Shown: piece after piece, positions 11,028 through 33,200 of the stretch
How positions within the stretch are numbered: position 1 is the first letter of the stretch
Layout of the letters: every line of letters begins with the position of its first letter
From: Patescibacteria group bacterium
Lineage (GTDB): Bacteria; Patescibacteriota; Microgenomatia; JAMCZE01
DNA: 64,000 nt
Assembly (NCBI GenBank): GCA_023380635.1
Contig: JAMCRP010000002.1
Coordinates: 42,458 to 106,457, forward strand
Direction of reading: 5' to 3'
Made by a program: the position numbers and the translations under genes
Notes under the pieces: model-generated
Database searches by the model: none
What the model saw: the letters and a program-made list of their open reading frames with translations, nothing else
What the model was told of the DNA's origin: nothing

Positions 11028-11084
11028 TAAAATGAGCGTAGCGAATTTTACTAACCGAACGAAAGTGAGGTGTTTAAAATTCAC

Positions 11085-11110: not shown

Positions 11111-11115
11111 GATTT

Positions 11116-13185: not shown

Positions 13186-13236
13186 GGTATCCTGATTTTA
13201 TCACAGTTGCTATAATGTTCCTAATCGACCCTCTCA

Positions 13237-13345
13237 ATTTGAAATTTACAATTTACAATTTGAAATAAATATCAAATTTGAATTTTTTGAATTTGAAGAA
13301 TTGAAATTTCATTGAAAATTTCAAAGTTCAAATTTCAAATTTTGT
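13237..13345. repeat. A/T-rich 8-bp periodic 'AATTT(G/C)AA' array immediately upstream of mreB
   Basis: caatttgaaatttacaatttacaatttgaaat...gaatttgaagaattgaaatttcattgaaaatttcaaagttcaaatttcaaatttt. Confidence 0.8.
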
Positions 13346-13347
13346 GT

Positions 13348-14481: not shown

Positions 14482-14554
14482 CCCATAAGAATCTTCAGTC
14501 GCATTAGAAATTCTAGTTCTATAAACGGCATATTCACGCACGACAAAATGTACT

Positions 14555-14592
14555 CATTTTTGAAAATTTCGAATTTCAAATTTCAAATTGCG
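14555..14592. repeat. A/T-rich 8-bp periodic 'AATTT(G/C)AA' array downstream of mreB
   Basis: gaaaatttcgaatttcaaatttcaaattgcg. Confidence 0.7.
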
Positions 14593-15551: not shown

Positions 15552-18500
15552 ATGGGTTTTGATTTTGGTTTCGGCAAGCCGGAACATGTTCTTCAATATT
15601 TTGGCAAGCTCGGTCTAATTCCCAAAACTGTCCGGATGCGCGTCGAGGGGATTAAGGGCCACACTGTCGGCTGCTACCCGGTCAGCACTCTGGACACCTT
15701 ACTGAAAATTCAAAAACTACGCCGCGAAGGGCGGTCTATGGCCCAGGTTCGAACCGAGATCACCGGAGAGCCGAATCCGCCAACTTTTGATCAGGAACAG
15801 CTTCAGTTGCCAAGCACGGAACTTGTCAGACGAGCTCAAGCCGCCGGTTTTGATTTTGGTCCGGGTAAGCCGGTTCATGTTCTCCAGTATTACAGCAAGC
15901 TTGGTCTCTTACCTAAAACGGTCAGACTCCGTCTAAACGGTATCAAAGGACATACAGTAGGCTGCTATCCGGCGGAAGCAGTAGAGACCCTGCTAAAAAT
16001 CCAGAAACTGCGCCGGGAAGGAGTGGCGGTTAAGGATATCGCCCAAACGCTGGGCAACGAAGGGATTAAGCCGGCAGCCCGGCGGGAGGAAGCCGAAACT
16101 TTGGAAATTCTCCGGGTCGCGGCCCAAGCCCCGGTCCGCTATCAAGCCGAAACCGAAGCCGGCAGGCTGGCCGGATATTTCCAACCCCCACCGCCAGAGA
16201 GACAAGAAACAAGATACAAGATACAAGAAACAAAGAAAACACAAGATGCAAAAGAAACAAAAGAGAAGAGAAGCTGGAAAAGCTTTGCTTACACTCTTCC
16301 GGCAGTTTTAGCTACTATCCTTCTGCTGTTAACTACCGGCCTGAATATATATATTACTTCCTATCAGAAGAAAGTGGCTTCTGACCGGAATTTGCAGGCG
16401 GTCTTGGCCGAAAGCAGCAGCCAAAACTTTTTAGACATCCGGGCGGATACCGATGTTTCCGGAAGACTGACCGTGTGGGGGAAAGATGTCTTAACAGAAG
16501 CGACTTTAGCTTCTTCTTCCCCCTACCTTAGCAACTTAAACCAAAGCCTCAGCACGACGGCCACTCCTACTTTTGCCAACCTTACCTTAACCGCCGGCAA
16601 GATTGTCCTGGAAGACAAAACGCAAACTTTAAAAAACAAATCGCTTTCGGGATCGGATAACACTTTTTCTAATATTCCCAACTCCGCTTTGGCTAACTCC
16701 AAAGTCACCGTGACGGCCGGCACCAACCTGACCGGGGGCGGGGATGTCGTCTTAGGTGACAGCACCACGATTGGTTTGAAGGACAACATTGCCTTAACGA
16801 CAGCGACTTTTTCTGGTCTACTGGGAGTGGGCGGGGACGCTTCTCTTTCAGCCGGATTGTACTTTTCCCTTGCCAGCCCAGTCATTGCCACGACAGACAT
16901 GCAATCCTTAACCTTAGGTAACAGCAATACCGGCAATATCCAGTTCTTTAACGCCTCAAACTATATTAATTCCGCCGGCAATTTAACTTTAGCTAATTCT
17001 TTGACGGTTAACACCACCACCAACTACACCGGCCTGGTTTTGCCAAACGGGGCCGGAATTAATTATGTCTTAACCACCGATGCTTTAGGCCATTCTTCCT
17101 GGACCAACCCCAACGGCCCGGGGACTTCCTTTAGCGGCTGGACCCTAACCGGCAACACCATTTACCCCAACGAAACCGCTTACGATCTGCTTTTAGGCAG
17201 CAGTAATGTTGTGGATGATGTGGCCAAATTCACCAACCTGGGCAGCACCCTGTTTAAGCCTTCAAATATTGCCAACCTAGCTAGCGGGGGAGATATCGGC
17301 ACGGCCGCAACCACGGTGGACATTTACACCACTTTTAATTTAAACCAGACAACATCCGGGCAAACAATCACTTTGCCCAACCCCACTAACACTACGGCCG
17401 GCCGCTTAGTCTATTTAGCCAACACCGGAACCACGCCTTTTAATTTCTTAAACAGTACGGTTTTAACCGGAACGACCACTCAAGCCATATGGAACGGGAC
17501 GGCCTGGACACTGGCTGGCTCCATGGCTGGTCTTCCGGCCGGAACTGTTGATAATTCAACGATGTATTGGGATAACGCCACTTCCCGGTGGCTGGAAAAC
17601 TCGAAACTTCTTTCCAACCCCTTGGGCACCATGCCGGTGGCTTCCGTAGCCGGAACCACTTCTTTTGCCGGGCTGGTAGTCGACAACACCATTGGGGACC
17701 TGTTTACGGCCAGTTCTTCAGGGAAGTCCCGCTTTACGATCACTCAAAACGGGAATGTCGGCGTGGGGATGGTTACTCCGACCGCTTTGTGGCAGGTTTT
17801 TGGCAATTCGACTGTCCAGGTGGCCAGTGTCTCGGCTTCTACCGGGAACGCGGCTCTTCTGGTTGACAACACCATTGGCGACCTCTTTACCGCGTCTTCT
17901 TCCGGAATGTCCCGGTTTGTGATTACGCAAAGCGGCAATGTCGGCATCGGAACGACGAATCCGGGCAATTTATTAGAAGTTGACGCAAACAGTAGCAATT
18001 ATGGCATAACCGTCAATGCGAATAATAGCGCGTTATCTCAAGCTGGGCTGAGACTTATTGCCGGTAACGGAAGTACTTCCCGGGCTGCTCGTTTGGATTT
18101 TCTTAACGTTCCGGCAAGCACATCCGTGCCACGGTGGACTTTTATTAATGACTATGACCAAAACGGTACAAATGACTTTAGATTTGTGAATAGTGATGGT
18201 TCAACGTCGGTCTTAACTTTATTGCAGGGCGGCAACGTCGGCATCGGGACGACGGGACCGGCGGCAACTTTGCAAGTTAACGCACCATATACTACCGCAG
18301 CACCACTGACGTGGGGCGCAACCGCTGGTCAAATTTTCAGAAATGAAAATTCGGAACTGGCCGTGGGACTGCTCAACAGTTCTCCATACCCGCTGTATTT
18401 ACAAGGTCGTACCAATACCAGTACTGCTCGTGACATTGTCATGAATCCAAGTGGTGGCAGCGTCGGCATCGGGACGACGGGGCCAAATTCGAAACTGACG

Positions 18501-20261
18501 GTAAACAACACAGGTTCTTATACAAATTTATCCTCGGCTTTCTCTGTTTGGGGCGGATCGACTACCTATACTATCGGCTCCTATTCCTATCCTGCCGAGA
18601 TACAGACAACTAGTAATAATCTTGGCCGCCTGCAATTTGCCGGCTACCGGAAATACAACCCGTATTATGACTGGGGAGGAACCGGGTTCAGAATTCAATA
18701 TGCTGTAGATAATTCGTTTACTGACGGTTCTTTGGCTTATCTATATTTAGGCACGGCGAATAATTACGCTGGACAGATATCCTTTGGAGTAGGCGGAGCG
18801 GATCGGGTAACGATAGACAACAGCGGCAATGTTTCTCTCAACACGGGAAATATTAACATGATTTCCGGAAATTCTAATACGACCATTATGGCCGACGGCA
18901 GCAATTATCTTTACCACACTTTTGCGGCAGGTAACGGGACCACGGGCGGTTATTATTTTTGTACCACCAACAATATAAGTCTCTGCCAAACCACTGGAAA
19001 CAACAACCGGGTTGCCTTCATAGATTCAATAGGAGACTTCTTTATCCGGAAAACTCTGACTCAGAATTGGGGCAGCGATTTGGCTGAAGGCGTTAAGGTA
19101 AACGACCCGGTTATTAATGAAGGCGATCTTTTGGTATTGCCGGTTACTCCAGCGAGTCCGGCCGGCCAGTTTGTGGCTACCAGAACGACCCGGGCCTACC
19201 AGGGTAATATCGCGGGCGTGGTTTCAACCAAACCGGGGATATACATGAATTCCCCAATACTGCCGGGCGATAAAGAGCCTAGTATGCCGGATATTCGGCC
19301 CCTGGCGCTATCCGGCCGGGTGCCGGTAAAAGTTTCCACCATAAACGGGCCGGTAACTGCCGGCGATTTGGTCACATCCTCAGAACTTGCCGGGATCGGT
19401 ATGAAAGCCAGCGTTCCCGGAGTGGTTGTGGGAAGAGCCTTACAGAGTCTGGATGTTTCCGCCTGCCAGCCGGTAGCTTCAGCTGCTGACATTGTCTGGC
19501 CTTCCGGAGATGACGGGAGCGATACTTTCAAGCGGCCTTGTTTCGAACTGCCGGACGGAACATATATCGGCAAAGTCATGGTGCTTGTTAACCTTGGTTG
19601 GCAGGATCCAACAAACGCTCAGCAAACGGAAATTGCTTCCCAGTCAGTTGATATTGCCACCATATCCGCGACTTTAGCTTCCTGGAATGATCTTTTGGGC
19701 ACCCCGTCAGCAACTTTGGCGGATTCGGTGGCCCACCTGGACGGTTTATCCCAGGATATTTCCTCTCTTATGGCCGATAACCTCCAGATTAAGTCCGATA
19801 TCCAGCTTCTTAAAGACCAGATGGCTTCGGTTTCGGCTAATCTTGCCCAGGTCCAAAGCCAAACGGCGTCTAATTCTGCCCAGTTGGCTTTGGGGTTAGG
19901 GGGTAACTTAACCATTACTTCGGATTTGGAAGTCTCGACTGTCAGTGCTTCCTTTGCCAACTTTTCTGATACCTTAAAAGTGGTCGGCAAGACCGAACTA
20001 GCTGAGACCAACATTGGAGGGAGTTTGACTGTCGGGCTATTAAGGTTTGACGATTTGAAAGCGGAGATCTCTTCCTTAACCGGAACGGTCACCGTTAACA
20101 GTAATTTGCAGGTGGCCGGAGATGCCACCGTGTCGGGAACGCTGCAGTCGGATAAGGTTAAAACTGGGGGGATTACCATCAAAGATAAGGTGACCGGCGA
20201 GCCATACTGCGTTACCGTCGAAAACGGAGTATTATTGAATACTAAAGGAGAATGTCAGTAA
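15552..20261 (+). CDS. giant membrane-anchored fibre-like protein (1569 aa): tandem divergent MerR-type HTH modules, single TM helix, large extracellular region with tail-fibre-like repeats
   Basis: The N-terminus has two copies of GFDFG-x-GKP-x-HVLQY(Y/F)-x-KLGL(L/I)PKTVR-x-R-x-GIKGHTVGCYP ... LLKIQKLRREG, matching MerR TLRYYE-GLL ... recognition-helix/wing layout. Then KKRSWKS, a TM helix (FAYTLPAVLATILLLLTTGLNIYITSY), and a S/T/N/G-rich region with four GNVGIGTT(N/G)P motifs. The N-terminal (~180 aa) and C-terminal (~210 aa) modules are shared with the 4697-aa paralogue. The first HTH helix appears to be encoded upstream of this ATG (see findings). Confidence 0.8.
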   Translation: MGFDFGFGKPEHVLQYFGKLGLIPKTVRMRVEGIKGHTVGCYPVSTLDTLLKIQKLRREGRSMAQVRTEITGEPNPPTFDQEQLQLPSTELVRRAQAAGFDFGPGKPVHVLQYYSKLGLLPKTVRLRLNGIKGHTVGCYPAEAVETLLKIQKLRREGVAVKDIAQTLGNEGIKPAARREEAETLEILRVAAQAPVRYQAETEAGRLAGYFQPPPPERQETRYKIQETKKTQDAKETKEKRSWKSFAYTLPAVLATILLLLTTGLNIYITSYQKKVASDRNLQAVLAESSSQNFLDIRADTDVSGRLTVWGKDVLTEATLASSSPYLSNLNQSLSTTATPTFANLTLTAGKIVLEDKTQTLKNKSLSGSDNTFSNIPNSALANSKVTVTAGTNLTGGGDVVLGDSTTIGLKDNIALTTATFSGLLGVGGDASLSAGLYFSLASPVIATTDMQSLTLGNSNTGNIQFFNASNYINSAGNLTLANSLTVNTTTNYTGLVLPNGAGINYVLTTDALGHSSWTNPNGPGTSFSGWTLTGNTIYPNETAYDLLLGSSNVVDDVAKFTNLGSTLFKPSNIANLASGGDIGTAATTVDIYTTFNLNQTTSGQTITLPNPTNTTAGRLVYLANTGTTPFNFLNSTVLTGTTTQAIWNGTAWTLAGSMAGLPAGTVDNSTMYWDNATSRWLENSKLLSNPLGTMPVASVAGTTSFAGLVVDNTIGDLFTASSSGKSRFTITQNGNVGVGMVTPTALWQVFGNSTVQVASVSASTGNAALLVDNTIGDLFTASSSGMSRFVITQSGNVGIGTTNPGNLLEVDANSSNYGITVNANNSALSQAGLRLIAGNGSTSRAARLDFLNVPASTSVPRWTFINDYDQNGTNDFRFVNSDGSTSVLTLLQGGNVGIGTTGPAATLQVNAPYTTAAPLTWGATAGQIFRNENSELAVGLLNSSPYPLYLQGRTNTSTARDIVMNPSGGSVGIGTTGPNSKLTVNNTGSYTNLSSAFSVWGGSTTYTIGSYSYPAEIQTTSNNLGRLQFAGYRKYNPYYDWGGTGFRIQYAVDNSFTDGSLAYLYLGTANNYAGQISFGVGGADRVTIDNSGNVSLNTGNINMISGNSNTTIMADGSNYLYHTFAAGNGTTGGYYFCTTNNISLCQTTGNNNRVAFIDSIGDFFIRKTLTQNWGSDLAEGVKVNDPVINEGDLLVLPVTPASPAGQFVATRTTRAYQGNIAGVVSTKPGIYMNSPILPGDKEPSMPDIRPLALSGRVPVKVSTINGPVTAGDLVTSSELAGIGMKASVPGVVVGRALQSLDVSACQPVASAADIVWPSGDDGSDTFKRPCFELPDGTYIGKVMVLVNLGWQDPTNAQQTEIASQSVDIATISATLASWNDLLGTPSATLADSVAHLDGLSQDISSLMADNLQIKSDIQLLKDQMASVSANLAQVQSQTASNSAQLALGLGGNLTITSDLEVSTVSASFANFSDTLKVVGKTELAETNIGGSLTVGLLRFDDLKAEISSLTGTVTVNSNLQVAGDATVSGTLQSDKVKTGGITIKDKVTGEPYCVTVENGVLLNTKGECQ
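16270..16790. repeat. 521-bp block 100% identical to 21964..22484 (shared TM plus proximal ectodomain module of the two giant genes)
   Basis: Direct base-by-base comparison of the two regions (constant offset 5694) shows no mismatch from gaagctggaaaag to ggacaacatt. Confidence 0.9.
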
Positions 20262-20300
20262 AATTTTCAATTTGAAATTTAAAATTTGAAATTAGGTTTG
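20262..20300. repeat. A/T-rich 8-bp periodic 'AATTT(G/C)AA' array between the giant gene 1 stop and the tagA-like start
   Basis: aaattttcaatttgaaatttaaaatttgaaattaggtttgaatt. Confidence 0.75.
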
Positions 20301-20302
20301 AA

Positions 20303-21097
20303 TTGTCTCTAATGAGAAAAGTTGTCTTGGGCGTTAATATTGATGATATTTCGAAAGAAGAAGCCCTTAGTCTGGTCAGTAGTTGGTTAACTGGTAAACT
20401 AGAGACTAGTAAACCAGCGACCAGCAAACTGGTGTTCACTCCCGGGCCGGAGTTTTTAGTAACGGCGGACAAAGACGCGGAATTTAAAAAAGTTTTAAAC
20501 TCTTCAGACTTGAATCTTCCGGACGGTTTTGGGTTAAAACTTTTGGGTGGCGTGGAGCATACCATTGCCGGGGTCGACTTTGTCAGAGTTCTTTGCCAAC
20601 TGGCAGCTAAAAACGGCTGGACTGTCGGCCTGCTGGGCGGACAAACCGGCATTGCCCGGCTGGCGGCTAAAAATTTGCAAAAAAGCTATCCCGGGTTAAA
20701 AGTTACTTTCGCTTTTGACGGGCCCGCAGCTGACAAAATCCTGACACATTCCGACACATTGCCATATAGTGATATTCTGTTTGTAGCCTTTGGACACCCT
20801 GCTCAAGAAAAATTTCTCGCAGAGCAGAAAGCGTCAAGCGTAAAGCGTAAAGAAGGAAGACTTGACGCTAAACGCTTTCCGCTAAACGCCATCCCGTTCC
20901 GCATCGGTATAGGTGTCGGCGGCAGCTTTGATTTTATTTCCGGGACTGTGCCCGAACCGCCGGTTATGTTAAAGAGATTAGGACTAAAATGGTTAGGCCG
21001 GCTTCTGAGCAGGCCGGCTTATATGGCCCCTAAAGTTTTCCGGGCCATTGTTTCTTACCCCCTTTTGATATTGAATTCCCGTCTCTGTAGCCGTTAA
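20303..21097 (+). CDS. WecB/TagA/CpsF-family glycosyltransferase (N-acetylmannosaminyltransferase-like)
   Basis: GVNIDDISKEEALSLV...TPGPEF...DLNLPDGFGLKLLGG...RVLGVDFV...GWTVGLLGGQTGIA...YPGLKV: collinear with the WecB/TagA fold family. Carries an extra SSVKRKEGRLDAKRFPLNAIPFR segment. Confidence 0.7.
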   Translation: MSLMRKVVLGVNIDDISKEEALSLVSSWLTGKLETSKPATSKLVFTPGPEFLVTADKDAEFKKVLNSSDLNLPDGFGLKLLGGVEHTIAGVDFVRVLCQLAAKNGWTVGLLGGQTGIARLAAKNLQKSYPGLKVTFAFDGPAADKILTHSDTLPYSDILFVAFGHPAQEKFLAEQKASSVKRKEGRLDAKRFPLNAIPFRIGIGVGGSFDFISGTVPEPPVMLKRLGLKWLGRLLSRPAYMAPKVFRAIVSYPLLILNSRLCSR

Positions 21098-21227
21098 AAG
21101 TAAAAAGCCTCAGTTTTTTTGGATAGAGCTTTAATGCTTGATGCCTTTGGTTTAGCACTCAAAAAGTGAGAGTGATAGATGGTGTTTTCAGGCTCGAAAA
21201 AATCTATACATTCACCTCATTTTCCCC

Positions 21228-24200
21228 TTGACAAATCTGTTCAAATCTCCGCATACTGATTATGCTGTGAAAAAAAGCACTGACGCCGGACTTTTAAAAA
21301 TTGGTGACGCTGCAAAGTTTCTTAATGTTTCTATCCAGACTCTTCGTCGTTGGGATGAGAGCGGAAAACTGAAACCGGTGGTGACTCCTGGAGGAACAAG
21401 ATTCTACGAAAAACAGGCCTTAAAAAATATCCGGGTCGGAAACGGAGTAAGGGAAACAGATGGTACGGGAGAAATGAAGTCGGAGCAGCAAGTAACAAAA
21501 AAGACGGGGAAATTCAGTAAGCGAGGACTGGTGAAGATTGGGACGGCAGCAAAACTACTGGGGATTTCAATTCCTACCTTGCGACGCTGGGACGAGATGG
21601 GCAAACTCCGGGCTGTGGTCAGCCCTGGCGGGACGCGTCTGTATTCTAAAGATTCCCTGGCGGCAATCAACCCGGCTTTATCCGAATATAAAATTCTCAA
21701 GAGCGAGGAACCCGAGATTAAACCAGCCAAACAATTTATTAAGGAAGTCGTATCTGAGGTTCTCCACCAGCAAAAGGCGGTTTTGCAGCTGCCGCCACCG
21801 GTTAATCCCATTCAAACTATCTCAGAGTGGAGCCAAGAGCCGGTACACTATCGGGCAGAAACGGAAGCAGGGAGAATAGCCGGATACTTCCAAAAACCGC
21901 CCCCGGAAGATACAAGAAACAAGATACAAGAAACAAGAGAAACACCGAATACAAGAAAGAAGCGAAGCTGGAAAAGCTTTGCTTACACTCTTCCGGCAGT
22001 TTTAGCTACTATCCTTCTGCTGTTAACTACCGGCCTGAATATATATATTACTTCCTATCAGAAGAAAGTGGCTTCTGACCGGAATTTGCAGGCGGTCTTG
22101 GCCGAAAGCAGCAGCCAAAACTTTTTAGACATCCGGGCGGATACCGATGTTTCCGGAAGACTGACCGTGTGGGGGAAAGATGTCTTAACAGAAGCGACTT
22201 TAGCTTCTTCTTCCCCCTACCTTAGCAACTTAAACCAAAGCCTCAGCACGACGGCCACTCCTACTTTTGCCAACCTTACCTTAACCGCCGGCAAGATTGT
22301 CCTGGAAGACAAAACGCAAACTTTAAAAAACAAATCGCTTTCGGGATCGGATAACACTTTTTCTAATATTCCCAACTCCGCTTTGGCTAACTCCAAAGTC
22401 ACCGTGACGGCCGGCACCAACCTGACCGGGGGCGGGGATGTCGTCTTAGGTGACAGCACCACGATTGGTTTGAAGGACAACATTAGCGTTACTTCGGTCA
22501 CCAGTTCCGCTCTAACAGTTAATGGAGACGCGGCTATTACCGGAAATTTGAATGTGGGCGGAGGCTTGCAATTTTCTAGCCTGGCGGTGACGGGGACAAG
22601 CGGAACAGCTCCGGTGGCTTCCATTTCCGGTAAAACGTCCTTTGCCGCCGTGGTGGTGGATAATTCCGGCTCAGGTGACTTGTTCACCGCTTCCACTGCC
22701 GGCCAGCCCCGCTTTACGGTTAATTCCAACGGCGACCTTTTACCCGGCATAACCAGTCATCAAAGTATCGGTTCTCCCACTCAGGTCTGGGACACCATCT
22801 ATGCCAATAATCTTTCCGGCACAAACTGGTCAGGAAACATCATCGGTACTCAATATGGCGGCACGGGTCAAGATTGGCACCTGACGGCTCAGGGCAATGT
22901 GCCTTATTTTTCAGCTTCCGGAACCATGAACACCCTGGCGCCCGGCACCAACCATCAGGTTTTTGTGACCCAGGGGGTTGGCGCCAATCCCAAATGGGAA
23001 GACCTGGTCAATTTGTTGACGCCGGGGACGGACATCACTCTGGGGGGAACTAATGTGGTCACTATTAATGACGCTTCCACTTTACAATCGGTTACCGGTC
23101 GGGGGGCGGCAACAACTAATCCCATCACTTTGAATTTAACCGGAGGTAATGCCTATTTTGGTTCCGGTAATGCTTCAGCCCTGGTCGATCTAAGTTCTAC
23201 CTCCAAGGGGTTCTTGACGCCACGCATGACTCAGGCCCAACGGGATGCAATTAGCACTCCGGCACCGGGGTTGCTAATCTATAATACTGATACAAACCAA
23301 TTCAATGTGTATAACAGTTCTACTTGGGGGGCTATTGCTGGAGCGGGGGCGGCGTACTGGGGAGATAATATCGGCGCGTTATATCCGCTATACCTCAACA
23401 GTGATTTATTAATCGGATCTGACGCCACGGCTTCCGCTTTAATCCGGCTTGAGGGCACCACGGGCTATATAACGGCTAACCGGATCAACGGCAACAAAAT
23501 CGCGACCGGATCAGGGAATGTGGCGGTTTCGGCGACTTTGCCTTTGGCCGTCGATACCAACGGCAACATGACTTTGGCCTATACCTCAAACCTGAAAGTG
23601 ACCTCAAGCCAACTGGATACGGCGCAAAACATTGGCCCGAGCGCCTCGCCGCAATTCGTCAGTCTGACGCTCGGGTCAGGAACTACCGGCACTCTCCAAA
23701 CAGCAGCGCTGACTGGCAGTCGCACTTGGACATTGCCAGACAACACCGGAGAAATATGCACGACCTATGGCAATTGTATCGGGGGCGTCGGGGGATCCGT
23801 TGGCGGTTCCGGTACCAATACCAAAATTGCCATGTTCACTCCTGACGGAACCCATATCGGCGATTCCCACATTACCGACACCGGAACTCAGATCCAGTTT
23901 TTTAATACTAGCAATTACATTGATTCCAGCGGCAATTTCTATTTAAACGGTTCATTATTTGCCTCCGGTAACGAGGCGGGTTTTTGGCAGCGGCAGAGTG
24001 GAGTGTTAGCTCCTAAGAATATCACCGATTCTTTGATAATTGGTGGTAACGCGACTGGATCCGGACAGCTACAGGTTTATGGTTTGAACTCGCAAATGCC
24101 GGTGGCGTCAATTTCCGCCCAGACACCCTGGGCAGCCCTGGTCGTGGATAATGCGACCGGTGACCTTTTCACAGCCAGTTCATCAGGAATGACCCGTTTC

Positions 24201-27200
24201 ACGGTTGGTAATACCGGTAATTTGACGGCCGGGACCTATAACACTGCCACTATCACCGGGGGGTCGCTCTCGGCCACGGCCGTAAATGGCGTGGCCACGG
24301 CCAACATTTTAACCACCGGCACCACTTTTGCCGGGGATGTTGGCGGCAGTTACAACAATTTGGCTATCGGGACGGGGAAGGTAACTAACCCCATGCTTTC
24401 CGGGCCGGTGGACACAACCCACGGAGGAACGGGCAATGACTGGCATCTGACGGCTCAGGGCAATGTGCCTTATTTCTCCGCGGCCGGAACGATGGGTCTC
24501 CTGGCGCCCGGGACAGCGTCGCAGGTTTTAACTACCGGTGGGGGCGGCGCGGATCCAGCTTGGACTAACATGGCCAGTTTGGTTACCGGAGCTGGTAACA
24601 TCACTGTCACAGGAACACAAACTCTATCAATTAACACGGTTAACAACCCCACTTTTAGCACTTCGGTCACGACACCGCTTTTGACAAACTCCGGTAATTT
24701 ATTAATTAACCCTACCGGTAATGTTGGGATCGGAACCACCAGCCCGGCGGCTTTGCTTTCGGTGGGGACAAATTCTGATTTACGGGTAAACGGCACCGGG
24801 GACATTGTCGCCCGGACTTACAACGGCAATATTATTGCCACCGGTTCCGGGACTTTAACTTTGGGATCCGCCTCGTTAAACATTGGTACCGGCGGAACAT
24901 TGAATACGGGCGCTTACGCCGATATTTCTTTGTACGCGCCCTTGGCCAGCCCGACTTTTACCGGCACCGTGACGATTCCCACTTCATTTGTTTTGGGCGC
25001 CACGACGGTCACCACGACCGGGACCCAACTGAACTACTTAAACGCTGCCACGGGAACCACGGGAAACACCAACTCCAACCTGGTTTTTTCCAACGGGCCG
25101 ACCTTAACTTCGCCGGCCTTTTCTACCATCGTCAATGTCGGCACTTTAACCCTGCCAACTACTTCTGATACGCTGGTTGGCCGGGCCACGACCGATACTT
25201 TTACCAACAAAACTTTTGACACGGCCGGGACCGGGAATATCCTGAGGATTAACGGCACCCAAGTCTCCGCCGTCACCGGCACGGGTTCCGTGGTTTTAGC
25301 TTCGGCGCCCACCATTAGCAACCCGATTATTACCAATATTAACCCCGGAGCCGATTTCACTTTAACCCAAAACAGCGTGACTCCTTTTATTTCCTATAAT
25401 TCCGGGGCGTTGGCCAACACTTTGGTCTTAAGCGCCGGCAGTGTGGGCATCGGGGTAACGAATCCGGGGGCTAAATTGGATGTGGCCGGCGCCGCTTCGA
25501 TTTCCGGCATTCTTACCTTAAACAACGGAGTGACCACCCAAATTAACGCTACCAATGACCGCAGTCTCGATTTGGGTTTTGCCAACACCGGCCGGGTCAA
25601 CTTTTTAACCACGAGCAGCTATATTGATGCTAACGGCAATTTTTCAACCAACGGCCAAATCCAGGTGGGAAGTTTTGCCAGTGCCCCGACGGCCCTCGGA
25701 GCCGGGAGCATGTATTACAACTCCACCGAAAACCGTCTTTACGCTTATAACGGCACGAACTGGAGCCCGCTGGGGGAGCAAAGCACGGTGGTGGTCACCA
25801 ATAATTCCGGCACCACTTTAAATCCAAAAGACCTGGTCATTTTTGACTCTTCGGCAAACAATGCGGTCACGACAACCACGACTGCCTACAAAAAGGGTGT
25901 GGTTTATGGTGTGGTGGTTGATGCCTCATGCGCCAGCGGGGCGACCAACTGTAAAGTCCAGATTTCCGGCAAGGTAGATGTCTCGGTCACAAATTCTAAC
26001 GCCGCCAAGGGGGATTATGTTTTCACCTCGACAACCGCGGCCAAAGGCGTCACTTCGGCCAAACTTTTTGACGGGTTGATCGGGATTGTGACCGATAACA
26101 CCAATGCCGGATCAGGCTATGTGACGATCATTTTCCAGCCGCAGGCCCAGGTGTTGGCCGGAGTGGTGATGGACAAAATCAGCAGACATAATGACTATAA
26201 AATTTATTCCAATATCTACACTCCCATCAATGAGGGTTCGGTTTTTAGTCCCAATTTAACCGCCCGGGGAATTTCTTTTGACAACTTTTTAGACCAGACC
26301 AAGGTTGATGCTGCTTTAACAACGGTCGGATCAACCATGTCTGCCCAGATCCAGTCACCAACAGCCCAGACCAGTGCGCCGTTTAGAATGGGGCTAACGG
26401 GCGGGCAAACCTACAATACCACTAACACCGATAACGCCGGTAACGCCTATTTAGGCTCCAACACGGTCAACAAAGTCTTTTATTACGACCGGACCCGCGA
26501 TTCCATCCCGCAAGTTCAAGTAGAGTTAGGAATTGACCCGAACTGGTACAACGGTGTCACTTTGTCCGTCGCTTCTACTTCAGCCCAATTCTCGCAAGCG
26601 GATACGATCACTAAACCCAATCCCAATCTTTCCACGGCTTACAACGGAAGTTTGGTCAAGGTTTCCGGAACCTATCCGACCCAGGCGGCGACCAGAACCA
26701 TCTATTTGACGATTACCTCGCCGACGCAATTCACCTGGTCCGACGGCGCCGTCGGCGCTAACAATGTCTCCATTAATCCCGGTGTTTCTCAGGCTTTGGG
26801 CACGACGGGTGTTTCCGTGACTTTCACCAATGTTAAATATAACCCCGGTGATGTCTTCCGGATTGCCTCCTGGGTCGTCGAGCCGGCCTCATCAACCCGC
26901 GGTTCCAAAGCCCAGTTCCCGGAAAGAAGCTATGTGATCGGGACAGCTTCCTCTGTCGATATTATTGACGCGGATACGAATAAACTTTGGATGCGCTTTA
27001 CCATAAATGCGACATCCTGGGCCGTCACTACCATGCTTATTGACGCTTCGTCAAGCGTGACTGCCCTGAATGGAACAATCTATTCTTCCCAAGGAGCCAG
27101 CGGTCTTTTGAAAATAGTTTTTGACCGAGATACCGGTTTTGGTTTTACAACCGACTGGACCAATTACGGCGGAACATTTAGAGGCGGTATCGCCCAGAGA

Positions 27201-30200
27201 AACACCCAGAATGGTTACGCTCAAAATGTCCCTCTAAACATTGTCAATAACACTGTTAACGATATCTCTGCCGCCGTCATTCCCAACCAGCCGACCCAAA
27301 CCGTGACGACAAGCGGGTGGGGATATATGTACCTTAATGCTGCGGGCTCGAATTACGAAGTCGTAAATCTTCCGTATAAATTTAACGATATACCGAAAGT
27401 GGTTATATCCGCATCAGCCGAACGGGCCACAGCACCAACTAATTACGGTGATTGTTCGTGGGGTATATCAACCAACTTTGTTGCCAACACCTATTCGGCT
27501 ACCACCAGTAACTTCGGGGCAACAATAGCTACTCCGGGCAGCGGAACCACCACCGGCTATATTTGTTACACCTGGACCGCCACCGGCGTTGTTTCCCCGA
27601 GACAATATGTGGCGGTGGGAACTAATCAAGGCGTTACCGTGATTAATGAGACGGATCAAAGTGGTGTGAACTATAGTACAGTAAGTTCTGGGGACCATAA
27701 TGTAGGAAGTGTTTTCTTAACCTCTAATGACAACCTTTACTTTAGTTATCCCTGGTCTTACCCAACAGACGTAAAAGTTGCTGTCCAATATGGCGTTGCG
27801 GGGGTTACTTCAAATGTCGCCTGGGACAGTTGGAGCGGAAATTATGCGTCAATTGGAAATAGCTGGAGCAATAAAGGTCCAACGCCATTACAGAGCTCAA
27901 CAAACTATCAGATTTTCGTTACTTCTGGAACTTCAACCATTGATGGAAAGAGCAATACAATTTATGTATCCGGTTCCAATGGTTTGACGGTTATCCAAGA
28001 AAAACAAGCCGGACGTTTTGGTACTGCTGAATCCTATGTTCCGTCAGATGAAAATAATGGCTCTGTTAAATACTACACCAAAGACTACATTTCCGAAGAA
28101 ATGGTCGGGGACATTCGGGGCATGTGGCCGCTTAATGGAACGCTTTCTGATGCTTCAGTTAAAGGCAATACGCTAACAGATGGTGGCATAGCTTTTGGAA
28201 CTGGTGTTCGGGGCCAAGGAGCGGTCATTTCCGGATTGAGCTTTCTTTACTGCACGGATGCCAGTTGCGGCGGGACGAGTAAGTTGGATTCTGGAGGTAC
28301 TGCCTGGAGTTTTGGAGCCTGGTTTAAGACTACTTCGACAGGAGGGACAATTATTTCTAAATATAACGGCGGAGTTAGCGGCGCATATTTTTTAGCAGTT
28401 GACGGTAGCGGAAAACTCTCCGGAGATATCGAACAAAGTCCATATACTTTCACCGGAAACAAAATTGTGAATGACGGTAATTGGCATTTTGGTGTCGTGA
28501 CATACGACGGAGTGTCGGCAAAGATTTACGCTGATGGTCAACTTGACAGTTTGGTCGCCATGACAGGAAACATTCCTGACACTACTGCTAACTTTGCGAT
28601 TGGCGCTCGATATACCGGCGGCAGCGTTTCTAACATTTTACTCGGTTCTATTGATGAACCCTTTGTTTCCGCTACAGCTTTAACGGCCAACCAGATTAAA
28701 CACATGTACGAAGTCGGCGCCCGGGCGCTTCAATCACATAGTGCTTCTTTGGGTGGCGGGGCGGCAGACGCTAATCAAAAGCTAGGGACAAATGTGGCTT
28801 CCGTGTCAGCCGCAGCGGTTGATTACAACAACCAGTTTATGTATGTTGGGGCTAATGACTCGACCAATGGCGGCGTTTCTAAAATTGATTTAAACAGCGA
28901 CACAAATATCCGGACTATCCAAACCGCCAACACTCCGGTCGGCGGCACGGTCTTGCCGGCCAAAACCGTCTCTTCTCTTGCTGCCGGGTACAATTTGGAA
29001 GTTGTGGGCACGGGAACCGGGGCTATCGGCATGGCTCCGGATGACAACGCCAACAACCTGAGTGGGACTCTTTACAGCAAAACTTTAACGACTCCGGAAA
29101 GTTTCTCCCAAGCCTATATCTGGAGCCAACAGGTGACGGACGCGGCCGACGCAGCCAACACGGTCACCGTCTGGGCATCTAATGACGGCGGGTCAAACTA
29201 TTACCAATGCAACCAAACGAATACAGATTCTACCCAGACGCCAACGGAATATGAGTATTTTTGCCAGTTTAATGCCGTTGGAAGTTCTTTAAAGATTAAG
29301 GAGGTTTTTGCCAGGGGTTCGACGAAAACGAACACTTATGTCACCAGGTATGGCGTGGCTTGGATTGATAGTAGTAACGCTATCGGGTCTAATCCTTTGG
29401 GTAACGGAATGTATACCAATAACGCGACCGTGGCGGACAGTTCGTACCTTGAGGTGGCCCACAACCAAAACACCGCCGACGCCGTGGCTAATGCCTGGAT
29501 TTCTTCGGAGTCAAAGTGGAAACAGTTGGATGCCACCTATAAACCGGTCGCCGCTTATGACGGACTTTCCGGCGTCTTAAGTGAGTACCATGATCTAGCC
29601 GCAAACTACAAAACCGGGGATTTAGTTTCCACCCCTTCGGGAATACTTTTTGATACTTTTAAGGACATTACCAAAACCGCTTCGGCCGCCAGCACCTTGT
29701 CTTTGGATTTTGGCAAAAACCGGGTAGGCCTAATGGGCGGACAAACTTTTAACACCACCAATACCGACTCTGACGGCAACGCATTGTTGGGCTCCAACAC
29801 GGTTAACAAGGTTTTCTATTATGACCGGATAAACAAAGATTCCTCGCCCCAAGTGCAGGTGGAACTGGGCGTTGATCCGAACTGGTATAACGGGGTAACC
29901 TTGTCAGTTGCCACCACCTCTGCCCAGATGAGCCAGTCGGAAACAACTGTTCCTGCCGGCAAGAATCCCAACCTTTCAACCACCTATAACGGCTCTCTGG
30001 TTAAAGTCACCGGGACTTACGCTACGACAGCCGCGGCCAGGCCAATTTGGATTACGATTTCTGACAACTCTTCGTTTGTTTGGACAGACTATAACGGCAA
30101 CGGCGGGACAGCCAGCCTTCAGCAGGGTGTCACGCAGGCTTTGGGATCAACCGGCGTTTCCGTGACCTTCACGGGGACAAAATATAACATCGGCGATGTC

Positions 30201-33200
30201 TTTAAGATTGCCTCCTGGTTCGTCGAAAAACCTTCCGCCACCAGAGGCTCAAAACAGCAATTCCCAGAGAGAAGTTATGTCGTTGCTACCGCCGCCTCAG
30301 TAGACATTATTGACGCCGATACCAACAAGTTATGGATGAGATTTACTGGGGCAGACGGCAATATTATCCATTTCCCAACAGGATTTACATATAATGTCCC
30401 ATCTGTCACAGCGCTTAACGGAACTTTGTATGCAGGCATACAACGGACGAATGGAGCTTGGGGTAACTTAACTAGTGTCTACTTCTCACGGGATTCTTCT
30501 TCTGGAATAACTAGCGGCAGTACTTTCCCCTATCCTGGCGTGATTTCTCAGAGAAACAGCGCACTCGGATATCCGCTAGCCTTGAGCACTGTAACCATAG
30601 CCAACAGTTACGTTAACGATGTCTCCGCCGCGGTCATTCCCAACCAGCCGACCCAGACGGTAACTGTGAGCGGGTGGGGGTATATCCAAGGAAACGGGTC
30701 CACGCCTTATGTATCCGAAACAGTCAATTTCCCTTATAAATTCAACAATCTTCCCGTTGTAAATATTAATTTTTCCGGAGGCACCAGCACTACCGCTCCG
30801 ACAAAATTATCGGATTGTGCTGCAAACTGGCGAGTCGAAGCACATGCTGAAAGTATAGGAAATAATAGCTTTACGGCTAAGACAGCACTCACGGAAACCG
30901 GCGACGGCAATACCAGCGCTACCGGTTATTACTGTTACACCTGGACCGCGACAGGGCAAGTTTCGCCGAGACAATATGTAGGGGTAGCAACTAACGGCGG
31001 AGCGACTTTAATTAACGAGACGGACCAAAGTGCGGTTAATTACGGCGACACGGCTCAGTTTAGCCGGATCGCCTTAACCTCCAAGAGCCATATGTATATT
31101 GCCAGAGATAGTAATGTGGGAGAAATAAGAGTCTTTAATAATGCCGCCGGATTGGGGGCTGGTTTTAGCTCAGATATGCTGCTTTTTCCCACAAGTAGTT
31201 GCACAAACCAGCCTTGTTATTTGGCTGAAGCCGCCGGCGGTAATGGTCATGGTCCAACCAGCTTGTTTGTTACTGACGGAACTTCAACGGTAAATGGGAG
31301 TGCCGATACAGTTTATGTCGGTACTGCTGTTGGACTCTCGGTATTTCAATTAAATAATACGAACGCTAATTTAGGTGACGGCCAGGGGGAAATCCAAAGT
31401 TCTTCAGTAAAATATTACACCAAAGACTACATTTCCGAAGAAATGGTCGGGGACATTCGGGGCATGTGGCCGTTTAATGGCAGCGGGGCCATAACTCAAA
31501 ACAGCACAACCTTTACTGATGCCTCAGTAAAGGCCGATCCTTTGGTTTCTAAAGGCACCGGGGCGGCATACGCCAGCGGTGTTCGGGGGACTGGTGTTTC
31601 GCTTAACGGCACTAATGATTATTTCTGCCCGAATGGAGGCAGCGGATCGACCTGTACGGATGTTTCTTCTTTAAAGATTACCGGAAACAGCATATCCGTC
31701 GGAGCCTGGATGAAATCCTCGGCAACTTGCTCTGTCTTTCAGGATGTCATAAGCAAGGAAGATAATACTACTGGAAATTCCTGGCGGATTACAATGGACA
31801 GTGGTAACCACGCAAGATTTGATACTACCTTTGCGCCGGTATATGGTGTGGCCGCAACGGGAACAACAAATATTTGTGACGGCAAGTGGCATTACCTTGT
31901 GGGAGTCTATAACAATGGTGACACACAAAAAATCTATGTTGACGGCAGACTGGAAGGGACCGGGGCCGCACAATCAGCGACAGTCAGAGATGTGACGGCT
32001 CCGGTAGCAGTTGGTGCTGAATTTAATAACGGTACGCCAGGGAATTATTTTAAGGGGACAATCGACGAACCGTTTGTGACAGCCACGACTCTTTCGGCCA
32101 ACCAGATTAAGCATATGTATGAAGTCGGCGCCCGGGCGCTTCAGAGCCATTCCGCCTCTTTAGGCGGCGGGGCGGCGGACAAAAACCAGCAACTGGCCGG
32201 AGCTGCCGGTAACCCCACAAATTTAGTCAAAGCAGTAGGGGTGGATTACAACAACCAATACATGTATGTTTCCAACTCCGAAGCCGGGCTTAACCAAAAC
32301 AACGGCGGAGTTTCCAAGATCGATCTTAATTCTGATACCAATGTTTACACTTATAAAAACGGTTCCACCCCGGCCCAGTTGGATAGTGAGATATCCTCTC
32401 TGGCAGTTGGTTACAACCTTGAAGCCATGTCTTCGACAGCTTCCGGCGTCCTCAACCCCGGTATTGACGCTTTTGCCAGTGCTACTTCCGGTTCCTTCTT
32501 CTCAAATACTTATGTTTTACCAAAGCCCATTGCCTCGGCCGTCATCTGGACCAGCGCTTACAAAGACACTGCCGATTCCGGTTCGACGCAGACGATTAAA
32601 GCCAGTGTTGACGGCGGGAGTACATACGCCACCTGTAATTTGCTTAGTACTGACTACAATCCGGCCACCCCTGAACGGGCCTATGGTTGCGAATTTGCCG
32701 CTTCCGGTCAAAACTTGAAAGTCGAGTTTGATTTAGCCCGAACCAGCGTCAAGTCCAACAATTATGTTTCACAATACGGGATTACCTGGCTGGGACAAAA
32801 CGGGTTCAGAGTGGAACAGACCAATAACAACACAGTCAGACTGTATAACTATTCCGGCGAATCGGCTAATGTCCGGTTGGATGTCATTACCGGCGGCCTG
32901 GGGAGAAATGCCGGGACGATTTCTCTGGCCCCCAGCGCGGCAGATGTTGATGCCCAGAATAATTCCAATTCCCTGTGGATAAACAAAACGGGGGCGGGAG
33001 GGAATTTATTAAAACTTCAGGTCAGCGGGGCTGACAAACTCACCTTGGATGCTAACGGCCTGATGACCTTGACTGGGAACTTTGTTCCGGGAGCGGACAA
33101 CACCTATGATTTGGGCGCCTCGTCATCAGCCAGGTTTAGAAACTTGTATCTTGGACCCGGCTCGCTTCATATTCAGTCAAAATCCACAGACACGGGTTAC

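What the first reader, a model, noticed from the sequence alone, without database searches (positions are those of the whole stretch)
16270..22484. Mosaic identity between the two giant genes: a 521-bp 100% identical block plus conserved 3' modules points to ongoing gene conversion or cassette exchange
Block 16270-16790 (giant gene 1) equals 21964-22484 (giant gene 2) with no mismatch although the flanks differ. A second block (17817-17951 versus 33369-33503) is ~97% identical. The last ~640 bp of both genes (19620-20261 versus 34680-35321) are ~85% identical with islands of perfect identity. Mismatches in the 3' modules are not adenine-specific, so this is not a DGR TR/VR pair. Shared ends with unrelated middles suggest that conserved N- and C-terminal cassettes (membrane anchor, chaperone/coiled coil) are recombined onto variable fibre cores.
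Basis: seen in the sequence. Interest (0 to 1): 0.6.

Follow-up and report, generated by a model that had tools for sequence, protein, structure and literature searches.

The report
Gene conversion among giant surface-fibre genes
Giant membrane-anchored, tail-fibre-like surface protein genes of an uncultured ultra-small (Patescibacteria/CPR) bacterium, two in the window and a third outside it, share patches of identical sequence on an otherwise ancient, saturated divergence; this is the usual signature of repeated gene conversion between paralogous surface-protein genes, here seen in a little-studied lineage.

Summary
The core observation holds. Window 16270-16790 equals 21964-22484 base for base (521 bp, same codon phase). 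17817-17951 versus 33369-33503 is 130/135 identical. The 3' modules are about 71-75% identical in DNA, not about 85%; synonymous sites there are saturated (dS about 1.4).

The block encodes the juxtamembrane segment, the only predicted transmembrane helix and the first ~150 extracellular residues. The two proteins have the layout MerR-type HTH head, TM helix, giant fibre, C-terminal module.

The source is an NCBI Patescibacteria MAG contig of 174,714 bp. It carries a third paralogue outside the window (MCL4398029.1, "g0"). g0 is amino-acid identical to gene 1 over 240 + 32 residues, covering the head, TM and block. It is identical to gene 2 over 291 residues around the Peptidase_S74 domain.

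Independent k=31 contigs of run SRR10278331 stop exactly 30 nt inside the predicted repeat edges, so the repeats exist in the reads.

Best explanation: recurrent non-reciprocal recombination among three paralogues, with tracts of different ages and end points.

Caveats: "100%" may be inflated by de Bruijn bubble removal, and head-to-body pairings across the 521-720 bp repeats rest on the assembler. The mechanism is a known kind; the lineage and protein architecture are new.

The parts
15552..20261 (+). Giant gene 1 (1569 aa; MCL4398055.1): two degenerate MerR-like ('type A') head repeats, TM helix, fibre, 'GSDLAE' domain, C-terminal module
   Evidence: ORF; Pfam MerR_1, E=1e-8 for the whole protein and 4e-11 for the head alone; accession and contig
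15919..16269 (+). Part of the gene-1 head (second HTH repeat, linker, juxtamembrane) that is amino-acid identical to the third paralogue g0; gene 2 differs here (56% aa over the last 50 codons, dS~1.06)
   Evidence: g0/g1 exact aa block at g1 124-363; Logan contig L095 (= window 10349-15948) ends 30 nt after the g0/g1 mismatch at 15918; dS
16198..16271 (+). Purine-rich imperfect repeat (AAGAAACAAGATAC-like) at the 5' edge of block copy 1; the counterpart in gene 2 is 21908-21956 and differs by 6- and 9-nt indels
   Evidence: repeat family D9; alignment
16270..16790 (+). Identical block, copy 1 (juxtamembrane, TM and first ~150 extracellular residues, ending in the family-wide motif ...NSKVTVTAGTNLTGGGD...LKDNI)
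   Evidence: 521/521; 0 differences over ~129 synonymous sites; motif conservation
16281..16361 (+). The only predicted TM helix of gene 1 (aa 244-270); 8-9 K/R upstream vs 3 downstream, suggesting N-in/C-out
   Evidence: Kyte-Doolittle scan
17817..17951 (+). Second, older tract, copy 1 (repeat unit QVASVSASTG..DLFTASSSGMSRFVITQSGNVGIG)
   Evidence: 130/135 to 33369-33503; all other unit pairs <=67%
19071..19619 (+). Gene-1 'GSDLAE...GRVPVKVS' domain at the position where gene 2 has S74; relatives carry DYAE/DLAE at this place
   Evidence: motif position; relatives; Peptidase_G2 only sub-threshold in relatives and absent for g1
19620..20261 (+). C-terminal module of gene 1 (predicted helical stretch plus a conserved ~110-aa terminal domain with two Cys)
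   Evidence: 76% aa to gene 2 and dS~1.4; homologues P0006-P0009; Logan contig L094 starts at 20097, 30 nt before the g0/g1 divergence at 20127
20303..21097 (+). WecG/TagA-type glycosyltransferase gene between the two giant genes (MCL4398056.1)
   Evidence: Pfam PF03808, E=2.5e-31
21228..35321 (+). Giant gene 2 (4697 aa): two canonical MerR HTH ('type B') heads, TM helix, fibre with two Laminin_G_3 modules, Peptidase_S74, C-terminal module
   Evidence: ORF; Pfam
21964..22484 (+). Identical block, copy 2 (TM helix at 21975-22055)
   Evidence: Logan contig L094 (= window 20097-21993) ends exactly 30 nt into it
28074..28130 (+). 57-nt exact patch shared with 31416-31472, inside the ~1000-aa internal tandem duplication of gene 2 (26259-29177 / 29631-32603; 55% nt, third-position identity 37%)
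   Evidence: permuted maximum run 23 nt
33369..33503 (+). Second, older tract, copy 2
33834..34706 (+). Gene-2 segment (aa 4203-4493, including Peptidase_S74 at 34404-34601 with its SDIRLKEN Ser-Lys motif) that is amino-acid identical to paralogue g0
   Evidence: S74 Pfam 54.3 bits (cut-off 22); alignment to phage tail fibre 8jov and MYRF 7dc3
34680..35321 (+). C-terminal module of gene 2
   Evidence: three-way alignment with g0

Best explanation
The window comes from the chromosome of a Patescibacteria (Microgenomates/Daviesbacteria-like) bacterium. That chromosome carries at least three paralogous genes for giant surface fibres: g0 (outside the window), gene 1 and gene 2. Each protein has one or two cytoplasmic MerR-type HTH domains, a single TM helix and a very long phage-tail-fibre-like ectodomain. 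The ectodomain ends in an S74 domain or a 'DLAE' domain, followed by a conserved terminal module.

The paralogues are old. Their heads belong to two different types that are also separate in other genomes, and synonymous sites are saturated wherever the genes can be aligned.

On this old background lie patches of identity with different partners and different end points:
- g1=g2 over the 521-bp TM/stalk block.
- g0=g1 from the second head repeat into the block.
- g0=g2 over ~290 residues around S74.
- A 135-bp tract at 96% between g1 and g2.
- A 57-nt exact patch between the two internal duplicates of gene 2.

The most economical mechanism is repeated homologous, non-reciprocal recombination (gene conversion) between the paralogues. 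This homogenises the membrane-proximal and C-terminal modules while the receptor-facing cores stay different.

Crossovers between g0 and g1/g2 would delete essential genes such as leuS, argS and mreB if the repeats are direct, and would invert the interval if they are inverted; g0's orientation is unknown. A crossover between the two 521-bp direct, in-phase copies would give an in-frame g1-head/g2-body chimera and remove 5694 bp.

Shown: the identities, their edges, their phase, the paralogy and the read-level branch points. Inferred: the recombination mechanism, its recurrence, and any selective value.
For: - Exact 521-bp identity in the same phase, with 0 of ~129 synonymous sites changed. 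The adjacent 50 codons give dS~1.06, the C-terminal module dS~1.4, and the downstream sequence is unalignable.
- Permutation P<=2e-4.
- Ancient paralogy. Type A heads (g1, P0001, P0002, L006, L024, L034) follow mreB in L006, L034 and the window. Type B heads (g2 and ~35 relatives) usually follow the ATP-synthase operon.
- Family members in other genomes are only 32-57% identical to the block as a whole, so protein constraint cannot explain nucleotide identity.
- The third paralogue is on the same 174,714-bp contig and shows segment-wise perfect identity to g1 or to g2.
- The junction at 'LKDNI' is the same in all three genes although three different bodies follow it.
- The further tracts of 135 bp and 57 nt are clear outliers.
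- Logan k=31 contigs of SRR10278331 are 100% identical to the window. They end or start exactly k-1 = 30 nt inside the predicted repeat edges at 15919, 20126 and 21964.
- No reverse transcriptase, integrase or transposase was found among the window ORFs that were scanned.
Against: - No DNA of g0 could be obtained, so its identities are shown at the amino-acid level plus three 30-nt unitig ends.
- The 3' flank of the block is non-homologous between g1 and g2. The right end of the tract therefore cannot be shown to lie in pre-existing homology, and a segmental replacement by illegitimate recombination would look the same.
- The donor and recipient of the 521-bp tract could not be resolved.
- The assembly is most probably short-read. 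Bubble removal could have erased a few true differences, and the pairing of heads with bodies across the 521-720-bp exact repeats is the assembler's choice.
- No population or strain data exist. No close relative was found in JGI metagenomes, and only one run holds the organism.
Confidence: 0.7

Rival explanations
1. Assembly artefact. The identity, or the mosaic, is produced by the metagenome assembler. Either near-identical repeats were collapsed by bubble popping and then traversed twice, or variable fibre alleles of co-existing strains were stitched into one contig, or repeats were mis-resolved so that heads are joined to the wrong bodies.
For: The source is a MAG contig. The repeats (521 bp, and ~720 bp for g0/g1) probably exceed the read length of the run (not checked). 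Every alternative head-body pairing is in frame. Relatives' contigs often stop 0.5-3 kb after this block.
Against: An assembler cannot invent three different unique left and right contexts. Unitigs built independently from the reads carry the g2-specific upstream sequence running 30 nt into the block, and the mreB-g1 head running 30 nt into the g0/g1 repeat. Gene 1 follows mreB as type A genes do in L006 and L034. Unique housekeeping genes separate the three loci. Bubble popping could hide only a few SNPs, not the contrast with dS>1 in the flanks.
Confidence: 0.12
2. One-off domain shuffling. The TM/stalk cassette was recently copied from one gene into another by illegitimate recombination or segmental duplication, rather than by homology-driven conversion between segments that were already homologous. 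There is no ongoing process.
For: The 3' edge is abrupt and is followed by unalignable sequence. The 5' edge lies in a low-complexity purine repeat with indels.
Against: All family members already carry a homologous TM/stalk segment at this position, so homology was available. There are at least four further patches with different partners, lengths and ages, which argues for a recurrent process. Identity decays in steps upstream of the block, from 100% to ~85% to ~70%.
Confidence: 0.12
3. Selection on the nucleotide sequence itself. An embedded RNA, internal promoter or translation signal keeps the 521 bp identical without any exchange.
For: None directly. The block is the only long, perfectly conserved stretch between g1 and g2.
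Against: Homologous segments in other genomes are only 32-57% identical in protein. g0 carries an 18-residue divergent patch inside the block. The promoter and terminator scans show nothing beyond chance.
Confidence: 0.03
4. A diversity-generating retroelement or a site-specific cassette system (shufflon or invertase) acts on the fibres.
For: DGRs are common in CPR genomes (own knowledge), and two PF05635 four-helix-bundle genes lie nearby.
Against: The big block has no mismatches and the small block has no adenine-specific pattern. No reverse transcriptase or recombinase was found in the scanned window ORFs. The repeats are long, direct and coding.
Confidence: 0.02

Closest known systems
Helicobacter pylori babA/babB/babC adhesin paralogues (intragenomic gene conversion giving chimeric bab genes; PMC4552749)
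   Same: Three full-length paralogous surface-adhesin genes sit at separate loci of one chromosome. They have homologous 5' and 3' parts and divergent middles. Chimeras arise by intragenomic homologous recombination in the 5' and 3' regions, and a simple repeat sits near the 5' junction.
   Different: Bab proteins are ~700-aa outer-membrane beta-barrel adhesins of a Gram-negative pathogen, and switching has been observed in isolates and in animals. Here the proteins are 1.6-4.7 k-aa N-anchored fibres with cytoplasmic MerR heads in an uncultured CPR bacterium. Nothing has been observed over time. The g1/g2 3' modules are too diverged (75%) to act as anchors.
Giant1-5 extracellular protein gene cluster of Apilactobacillus kunkeei (PMC12863079)
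   Same: Consecutive genes for very large surface proteins in a small genome. They have a conserved N-terminal export signal and C-terminal segment with repetitive, variable cores. Diversification is attributed to many short intragenic recombination tracts.
   Different: That work infers recombination between strains from many genomes. Those proteins have Sec signal peptides and DUF5776 ends, with no HTH head, TM anchor or S74. Here the exchange is between paralogues within one genome.
Phage tail fibres and tailspikes with a C-terminal Peptidase_S74 intramolecular chaperone, and modular exchange of receptor-binding proteins
   Same: Gene 2 and g0 have a bona fide S74 domain with the Ser-Lys motif, preceded by GNVGIGTT-type fibre repeats. 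Conserved ends sit on variable cores.
   Different: These are chromosomal genes of a cell, flanked by housekeeping genes. The proteins are anchored in the membrane through an N-terminal TM helix and carry MerR heads. A ~200-aa module follows S74.
Silent-cassette antigenic variation (Neisseria pilE/pilS, Borrelia vlsE, Anaplasma msp2); own knowledge
   Same: Segmental, non-reciprocal gene conversion acts on surface proteins, with conserved stretches serving as homology anchors.
   Different: There is no expression site plus truncated silent copies: gene 1 and gene 2 are complete ORFs and g0 is a 1612-aa protein carrying head, TM and tail (its start lies inside an HTH repeat and may be miscalled). 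What is homogenised is the constant part, not the variable part.

Membership tests
Gene conversion / concerted evolution between intragenomic paralogues | The copies are paralogues in one genome | tested here: met
   g1 and g2 lie in one window. g0 (MCL4398029.1) and g1 (MCL4398055.1) are both on a 174,714-bp contig and their accession numbers belong to one series.
Gene conversion / concerted evolution between intragenomic paralogues | A tract of (near) identity that includes synonymous sites, embedded in much older divergence | tested here: met
   0 of ~129 synonymous sites differ in the block, against dS 1.06 and 1.4 in alignable flanks. Permutation P<=2e-4.
Gene conversion / concerted evolution between intragenomic paralogues | Different segments support different relationships (mosaic or incongruent history) | tested here: met
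   g0=g1 but not g2 in the head. g1=g2 but not g0 in an 18-residue patch. g0=g2 around S74, where g1 has a different domain.
Gene conversion / concerted evolution between intragenomic paralogues | Both tract ends lie in homologous sequence; the transfer is non-reciprocal and has an identifiable donor | tested here: inconclusive
   The 5' end lies in 70-85% identical sequence. The 3' end abuts unalignable sequence. Donor direction is unresolved.
Gene conversion / concerted evolution between intragenomic paralogues | Dependence on the homologous recombination machinery; events seen in populations | not testable with these tools
   No reads, no strains and no close relatives.
Diversity-generating retroelement (TR/VR) | Adenine-specific mismatches between template and variable repeat; reverse transcriptase nearby | tested here: not met
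   0 mismatches in 521 bp. The 5 mismatches in 135 bp are not A-specific. No RT in the scanned ORFs.
Silent-cassette antigenic variation system | One expressed locus plus truncated, promoterless donor cassettes | tested here: not met
   Gene 1 and gene 2 are complete ORFs with head, TM and tail; g0 is a 1612-aa protein with the same parts, though its start lies inside an HTH repeat.
Peptidase_S74 (intramolecular chaperone of tail fibres/endosialidase) | S74 domain with a catalytic Ser-Lys dyad at the C-terminal end of a fibre | tested here: met
   Gene 2: PF13884 at 54.3 bits against a cut-off of 22. The motif YSDIRLKEN aligns to 8jov and 7dc3. g0 has the identical segment. Gene 1 has no S74. 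Autocleavage itself cannot be tested.
MerR-family transcription regulators | N-terminal MerR-type HTH | tested here: met
   g2: PF00376 at 79.5 bits and PF13411 at 50.3 bits, each in two stretches. g1: PF13411 at 35.5-43.2 bits, matching profile positions 13-66 only, so the first helix is atypical.
MerR-family transcription regulators | Soluble dimer with a coiled-coil and a C-terminal effector-binding domain; binds operator DNA | tested here: not met
   The HTH is followed by a linker, a TM helix and a giant ectodomain. DNA binding cannot be tested. These proteins are therefore not filed as canonical MerR regulators.
Peptidase_G2 (IMC autoproteolytic domain) for the gene-1 'GSDLAE' region | Significant match to PF11962 | tested here: not met
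   No hit for g1. Relatives reach only 22.4 and 13 bits against a cut-off of 25. The resemblance is a lead from memory and from the motif only.

The most novel reading that the evidence does not exclude
The identical, in-phase TM/stalk cassette (and the identical S74 cassette shared by g0 and g2) may not be a passive by-product. It could be a maintained homology box that lets the cell swap cytoplasmic MerR heads and extracellular fibre bodies among three giant genes. That would be a recombinational host-attachment switching system in an episymbiotic CPR bacterium. It would sit on a previously undescribed architecture in which a DNA-binding head is tethered through the membrane to a phage-tail-fibre-like filament.
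Probability: 0.15. Interest if true: 0.7.

Novelty: new member of a known kind. Interest (0 to 1): 0.5.

Why it matters
CPR/Patescibacteria are thought to live attached to host cells, and their giant surface proteins are prime candidates for host recognition. So far, targeted diversification in these lineages has mainly been ascribed to DGRs (own knowledge).

This locus shows that ordinary homologous exchange between paralogues also shapes such genes. It keeps the membrane anchor and the folding and C-terminal modules uniform while the cores differ.

It also documents a small family of about 50-60 clusters at 50% identity. Its members are MerR-headed, membrane-anchored, tail-fibre-like proteins, and I found no description of them in the searchable literature.

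On the practical side, these repeats may be one reason why such genes fragment in short-read MAGs. Head-body pairings in such assemblies should not be trusted without long reads.

Tried and rejected
- Donor direction of the 521-bp tract. I compared the block with 5 type A and 34 type B homologues, in thirds and with bootstrap. The result is mixed: the first third leans to A, the middle third to B, and the last third ties. Unresolved.
- An NJ bootstrap tree timed out.
- I first argued that the sequence after the block co-segregates with head type, which would prove a patch and a correct assembly path. I withdrew this after seeing that g0 (type A head) has a body like that of type B proteins such as P0024.
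- Close strain variants. Exact look-ups of g1 and the 389-aa MreB ORF failed. A metagenome scan for near-identical blocks found none. The two sequence searches never returned g0, although it is in the collection, so the source assembly seems to be hidden from that tool.
- g0's DNA and contig could not be fetched. Look-ups of GalT and of the 121-aa ORF next to g2 also failed.
- The structure of the C-terminal region came out at pLDDT 41.5 and is unusable, so no fold search was run.
- Solved-structure search for the g1 tail returned only chance coiled-coil hits.
- Peptidase_G2 for the g1 'DLAE' domain was not supported. NCBIfam gave nothing.
- 'Islands of perfect identity' in the 3' module as micro-conversion between g1 and g2 are not significant.
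- Promoter and terminator scans found nothing above chance.
- Literature on MerR-tethered giant proteins in CPR: none found. Run SRR10278331 is not mentioned in the library.

Full report
**Observation.** The ORF list shows two long same-strand genes: gene 1 at 15552-20261 (1569 aa) and gene 2 at 21228-35321 (4697 aa). A WecG-type glycosyltransferase gene lies between them.

A base-by-base comparison at offset 5694 confirms that 16270-16790 and 21964-22484 are identical at all 521 positions. The drop is abrupt on the 3' side and stepwise on the 5' side. Both copies are in the same codon phase.

The third claim is overstated. The last ~640 bp align at 75% by BLASTN and at 71% nt / 76% aa in a codon alignment. 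The longest exact runs are 19-23 nt.

**Is it more than chance or protein constraint?** I computed Nei-Gojobori estimates on codon alignments.

| Segment | Codons | Result |
|---|---|---|
| 521-bp block | 174 | 0 differences over ~129 synonymous sites |
| Immediately upstream of the block | 50 | dS ~1.06 |
| Downstream of the block | - | 30% aa identity, effectively unalignable |
| C-terminal module | 219 | dS ~1.4, dN ~0.21 |

Permuting variable sites over 1506 aligned sites never gave an identical run longer than 73 nt, against 522 observed.

The small tract is also an outlier. Its repeat unit has five copies in the two genes, and only this pair is 96% identical; all other pairs are at most 67%.

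In the C-terminal module, identical and synonymous-different codons are only weakly clustered (runs test P=0.02; longest run not significant). That module is therefore an old shared domain under purifying selection, not a recent exchange.

**What the genes are.** The window is ordinary chromosome. It holds leuS, comEC, argS, an M16 peptidase, ndk, two tRNAs, sortases, mreB, nusG, rplA, sodA and a P-type ATPase. None of the ORFs I scanned matched a transposase, integrase or reverse transcriptase.

- Gene 2 has two canonical MerR/HTH_17 domains at its N-terminus, two Laminin_G_3 modules and a Peptidase_S74 domain near its end. The S74 domain carries the motif YSDIRLKEN and aligns to a phage tail fibre (8jov) and to the MYRF ICA domain (7dc3).
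- Gene 1 has two copies of a degenerate MerR_1-like domain ("type A": GFDFG..G.P...LQYY..LGLLP...GHTVGCYP) and no S74.
- Each protein has one hydrophobic segment, at aa 244-270 in gene 1 and 250-276 in gene 2. It lies inside the identical block, with 8-9 Lys/Arg before it and 3 after. The heads should therefore be cytoplasmic and the fibres outside.
- The block thus encodes the juxtamembrane segment, the TM anchor and the first ~150 extracellular residues. It ends in a motif conserved across the family, DxTQTLxNKxxSGSxNTxxNIPNSALxNSKVTVTAGTNLTGGGD...LKD.

**Relatives.** Sequence searches and scans of genome and metagenome collections found about 45 loci, all in Daviesbacteria, Microgenomates or Patescibacteria MAGs. 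Each has a single copy of the block, and identity to the block is 32-57% over most of its length.

An exhaustive profile search found 56 cluster representatives at E<1e-30. Their lengths reach 4057 aa.

Most relatives have the type B head and lie downstream of the ATP-synthase operon. The few type A genes follow mreB, as gene 1 does (L006, L034).

The two head types are therefore old, separate lineages. Identity between a type A and a type B gene in one genome cannot be a recent whole-gene duplication.

Seventeen of 31 genome loci end within 3 kb after the block. This fits assemblies breaking in these repetitive genes, but it proves nothing more.

**A third paralogue.** The profile search returned P0010 (1612 aa). 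Exact look-ups show that it is MCL4398029.1. It sits on a 174,714-bp contig of a "Patescibacteria group bacterium".

The window's own proteins are on a contig of that same length, with neighbouring accession numbers: leuS MCL4398044.1, mreB ..054.1, gene 1 ..055.1, the glycosyltransferase ..056.1 and GalT ..059.1. P0010 is therefore a third paralogue, "g0". By inference from the numbering, it lies about 14 genes upstream of the window start.

The exact amino-acid matches between the paralogues are as follows.

| Pair | Region | Identity |
|---|---|---|
| g0 vs gene 1 | g1 aa 124-363 (second head repeat, linker, TM, first 124 aa of the block) | identical, 240 aa |
| g0 vs genes 1 and 2 | next 18 residues (TIDGGSNTLTNISNSSLS vs SLSGSDNTFSNIPNSALA) | divergent |
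| g0 vs genes 1 and 2 | 32 residues up to LKDNI | identical |
| g0 | body after LKDNI | differs from gene 1; about 51% identical to the start of the gene-2 body |
| g0 vs gene 2 | g2 aa 4203-4493, including S74 | identical, 291 aa |
| g0 | terminal module | 82% to gene 2, 79% to gene 1 |

Three different bodies are thus joined to the same block at the same residue. Head and tail modules are shared in different pairwise combinations.

**Read-level check.** Two contigs from the Logan assembly of run SRR10278331 could be fetched through complete window proteins.

- L094 equals window 20097-21993 at 100%. It ends 30 nt into block copy 2 (21964+29). It starts 30 nt before position 20127, where the proteins of g0 and gene 1 diverge.
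- L095 equals window 10349-15948 at 100%. It ends 30 nt after position 15918, the single g0/gene 1 difference that precedes their 240-residue identity.

Ends at k-1 = 30 nt inside a repeat are what a k=31 graph produces at a branch point. So the reads themselves contain these sequences in more than one context, at the edges predicted from the proteins. g0 and gene 1 must also be identical in DNA over at least those stretches.

This does not validate the long-range path. The repeats probably exceed the read length (not checked), so which head is joined to which body depends on the MAG assembler. A de Bruijn assembler may also have removed a few true differences, so "100%" is an upper bound.

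**Further tracts.** Gene 2 contains an internal tandem duplication of about 1000 aa (26259-29177 and 29631-32603). The two copies are 55% identical in DNA, and third codon positions match at 37%. Even so, they share a 57-nt exact run (28074-28130 = 31416-31472); the permuted maximum is 23 nt.

With the 135-bp tract and the g0 patches, this makes at least five patches that differ in length, age and partner.

**Mechanism.** The simplest account is recurrent homologous, non-reciprocal recombination among the paralogues.

- If the repeats are direct, crossovers between g0 and genes 1/2 would delete leuS, argS, mreB and other genes; if they are inverted, a crossover would invert that interval. g0's orientation is unknown, so this is inference.
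- A crossover between the two 521-bp direct, in-phase copies would give an in-frame chimera of the gene-1 head and the gene-2 body. It would remove 5694 bp: the gene-1 body, the glycosyltransferase gene and the gene-2 head.
- The 5' edge of the block lies in a purine-rich imperfect repeat with small indels. The 3' edge coincides with the end of family-wide homology.
- Whether homogenisation of the anchor is selected or neutral cannot be decided here. A selective reason could be a common partner in the membrane or shared trimerisation.
- The gene 1/gene 2 tails, at 75% identity, cannot serve as efficient recombination anchors. The g0/gene 2 S74 segment could.

**Comparison with known systems.**

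- The closest analogue in logic is the H. pylori bab family: full-length paralogues, homologous ends, divergent middles and chimeras formed by intragenomic conversion (PMC4552749).
- The giant-gene cluster of A. kunkeei is another analogue. It has conserved ends and variable cores, with many short recombination tracts inferred between strains (PMC12863079).
- This is not a DGR, not a silent-cassette system and not a shufflon (see the membership table).
- I did not find the protein architecture (MerR head, TM helix, tail-fibre-like ectodomain with S74) described in the searchable literature. It resembles ToxR/CadC-type membrane-tethered regulators in topology, and MYRF in combining a DNA-binding domain with an S74 domain. 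However, S74 here sits at the far extracellular end, so its cleavage would not release the head. Those resemblances come from my own knowledge and were not tested.

**Verdict.** The interpretation of gene conversion and modular exchange is the best-supported one, and the third paralogue strengthens it. It remains an inference from a single short-read MAG. The mechanism belongs to a well-known kind; the host lineage and the protein family are the new elements.

Noticed in passing
outside the window (same 174,714-bp contig; protein MCL4398029.1 = P0010): A third giant paralogue (1612 aa). It has the gene-1 head and block and the gene-2 S74 tail, with a different core. By accession order it lies about 14 genes upstream of the window start.
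   Followed up: yes
window 13236-13341, 14568-14589, 20269-20290, 35329-35350, 35769-35797, 38257-38314, 54121-54211: Arrays of the heptamer AATTTGA/AATTTAC: 13 matches to a 22-mer against 0 expected. All are intergenic, often as inverted pairs, and two sit directly after the stop codons of the two giant genes. Their function is unknown (promoter, terminator or protein-binding arrays?).
   Followed up: partly
window 35368-35733 (also 10455-11027 and 37211-37813): Small genes that are or look like members of the '23S rRNA intervening sequence protein' family (PF05635). The two larger ORFs match below Pfam's cut-off; the 121-aa ORF was judged by eye only and is bracketed by inverted heptamer arrays, like a small cassette.
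   Followed up: no
window 26259-29177 and 29631-32603: Gene 2 contains an old internal tandem duplication of about 1000 aa (52% aa identity). Each copy carries a Laminin_G_3 module, and the two copies share a 57-nt exact patch (28074-28130 = 31416-31472).
   Followed up: yes
window 19920-20261 and 34980-35321; P0006-P0009: The last ~110 residues (LKVVGxTxLAxTNIGGSLTVGLLHFDDLKAEISSLTG...YC...G.CQ) form an autonomous conserved domain. It also occurs behind S74 in another protein and at the end of ~270-aa proteins with signal peptides. No Pfam family matches it.
   Followed up: partly
window 19071-19619; relatives P0020, P0022, P0031, P0032, P0037, P0039: Most family members carry a 'DYAE/DLAE ... 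GRVPLKVS' domain where gene 2 and g0 have S74. It matches Peptidase_G2 only below threshold in relatives and not at all for gene 1, so it may be a divergent autoproteolytic or chaperone domain.
   Followed up: partly
window 43306-52534: A cluster of unannotated, apparently secreted Thr/Asn/Gly-rich proteins that ends with a second sortase gene (51986-52534). It may be a sortase-dependent surface structure.
   Followed up: no
relatives P0015, P0019, P0023, P0025, P0032: Several homologues seem to be interrupted after 'LHVVGQCV' by Hint/intein-like inserts (...VAHNT). That suggests inteins inside giant fibre genes of related CPR genomes. This was judged by eye only.
   Followed up: no
tool behaviour: Proteins of the source assembly are in the collection but were never returned by the search for homologous proteins, and their NCBI contig was never returned by the look-up of encoding contigs. 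Only the 50% representative library and the Logan contigs exposed them. The absence of close hits in those tools is therefore not evidence of absence.
   Followed up: yes
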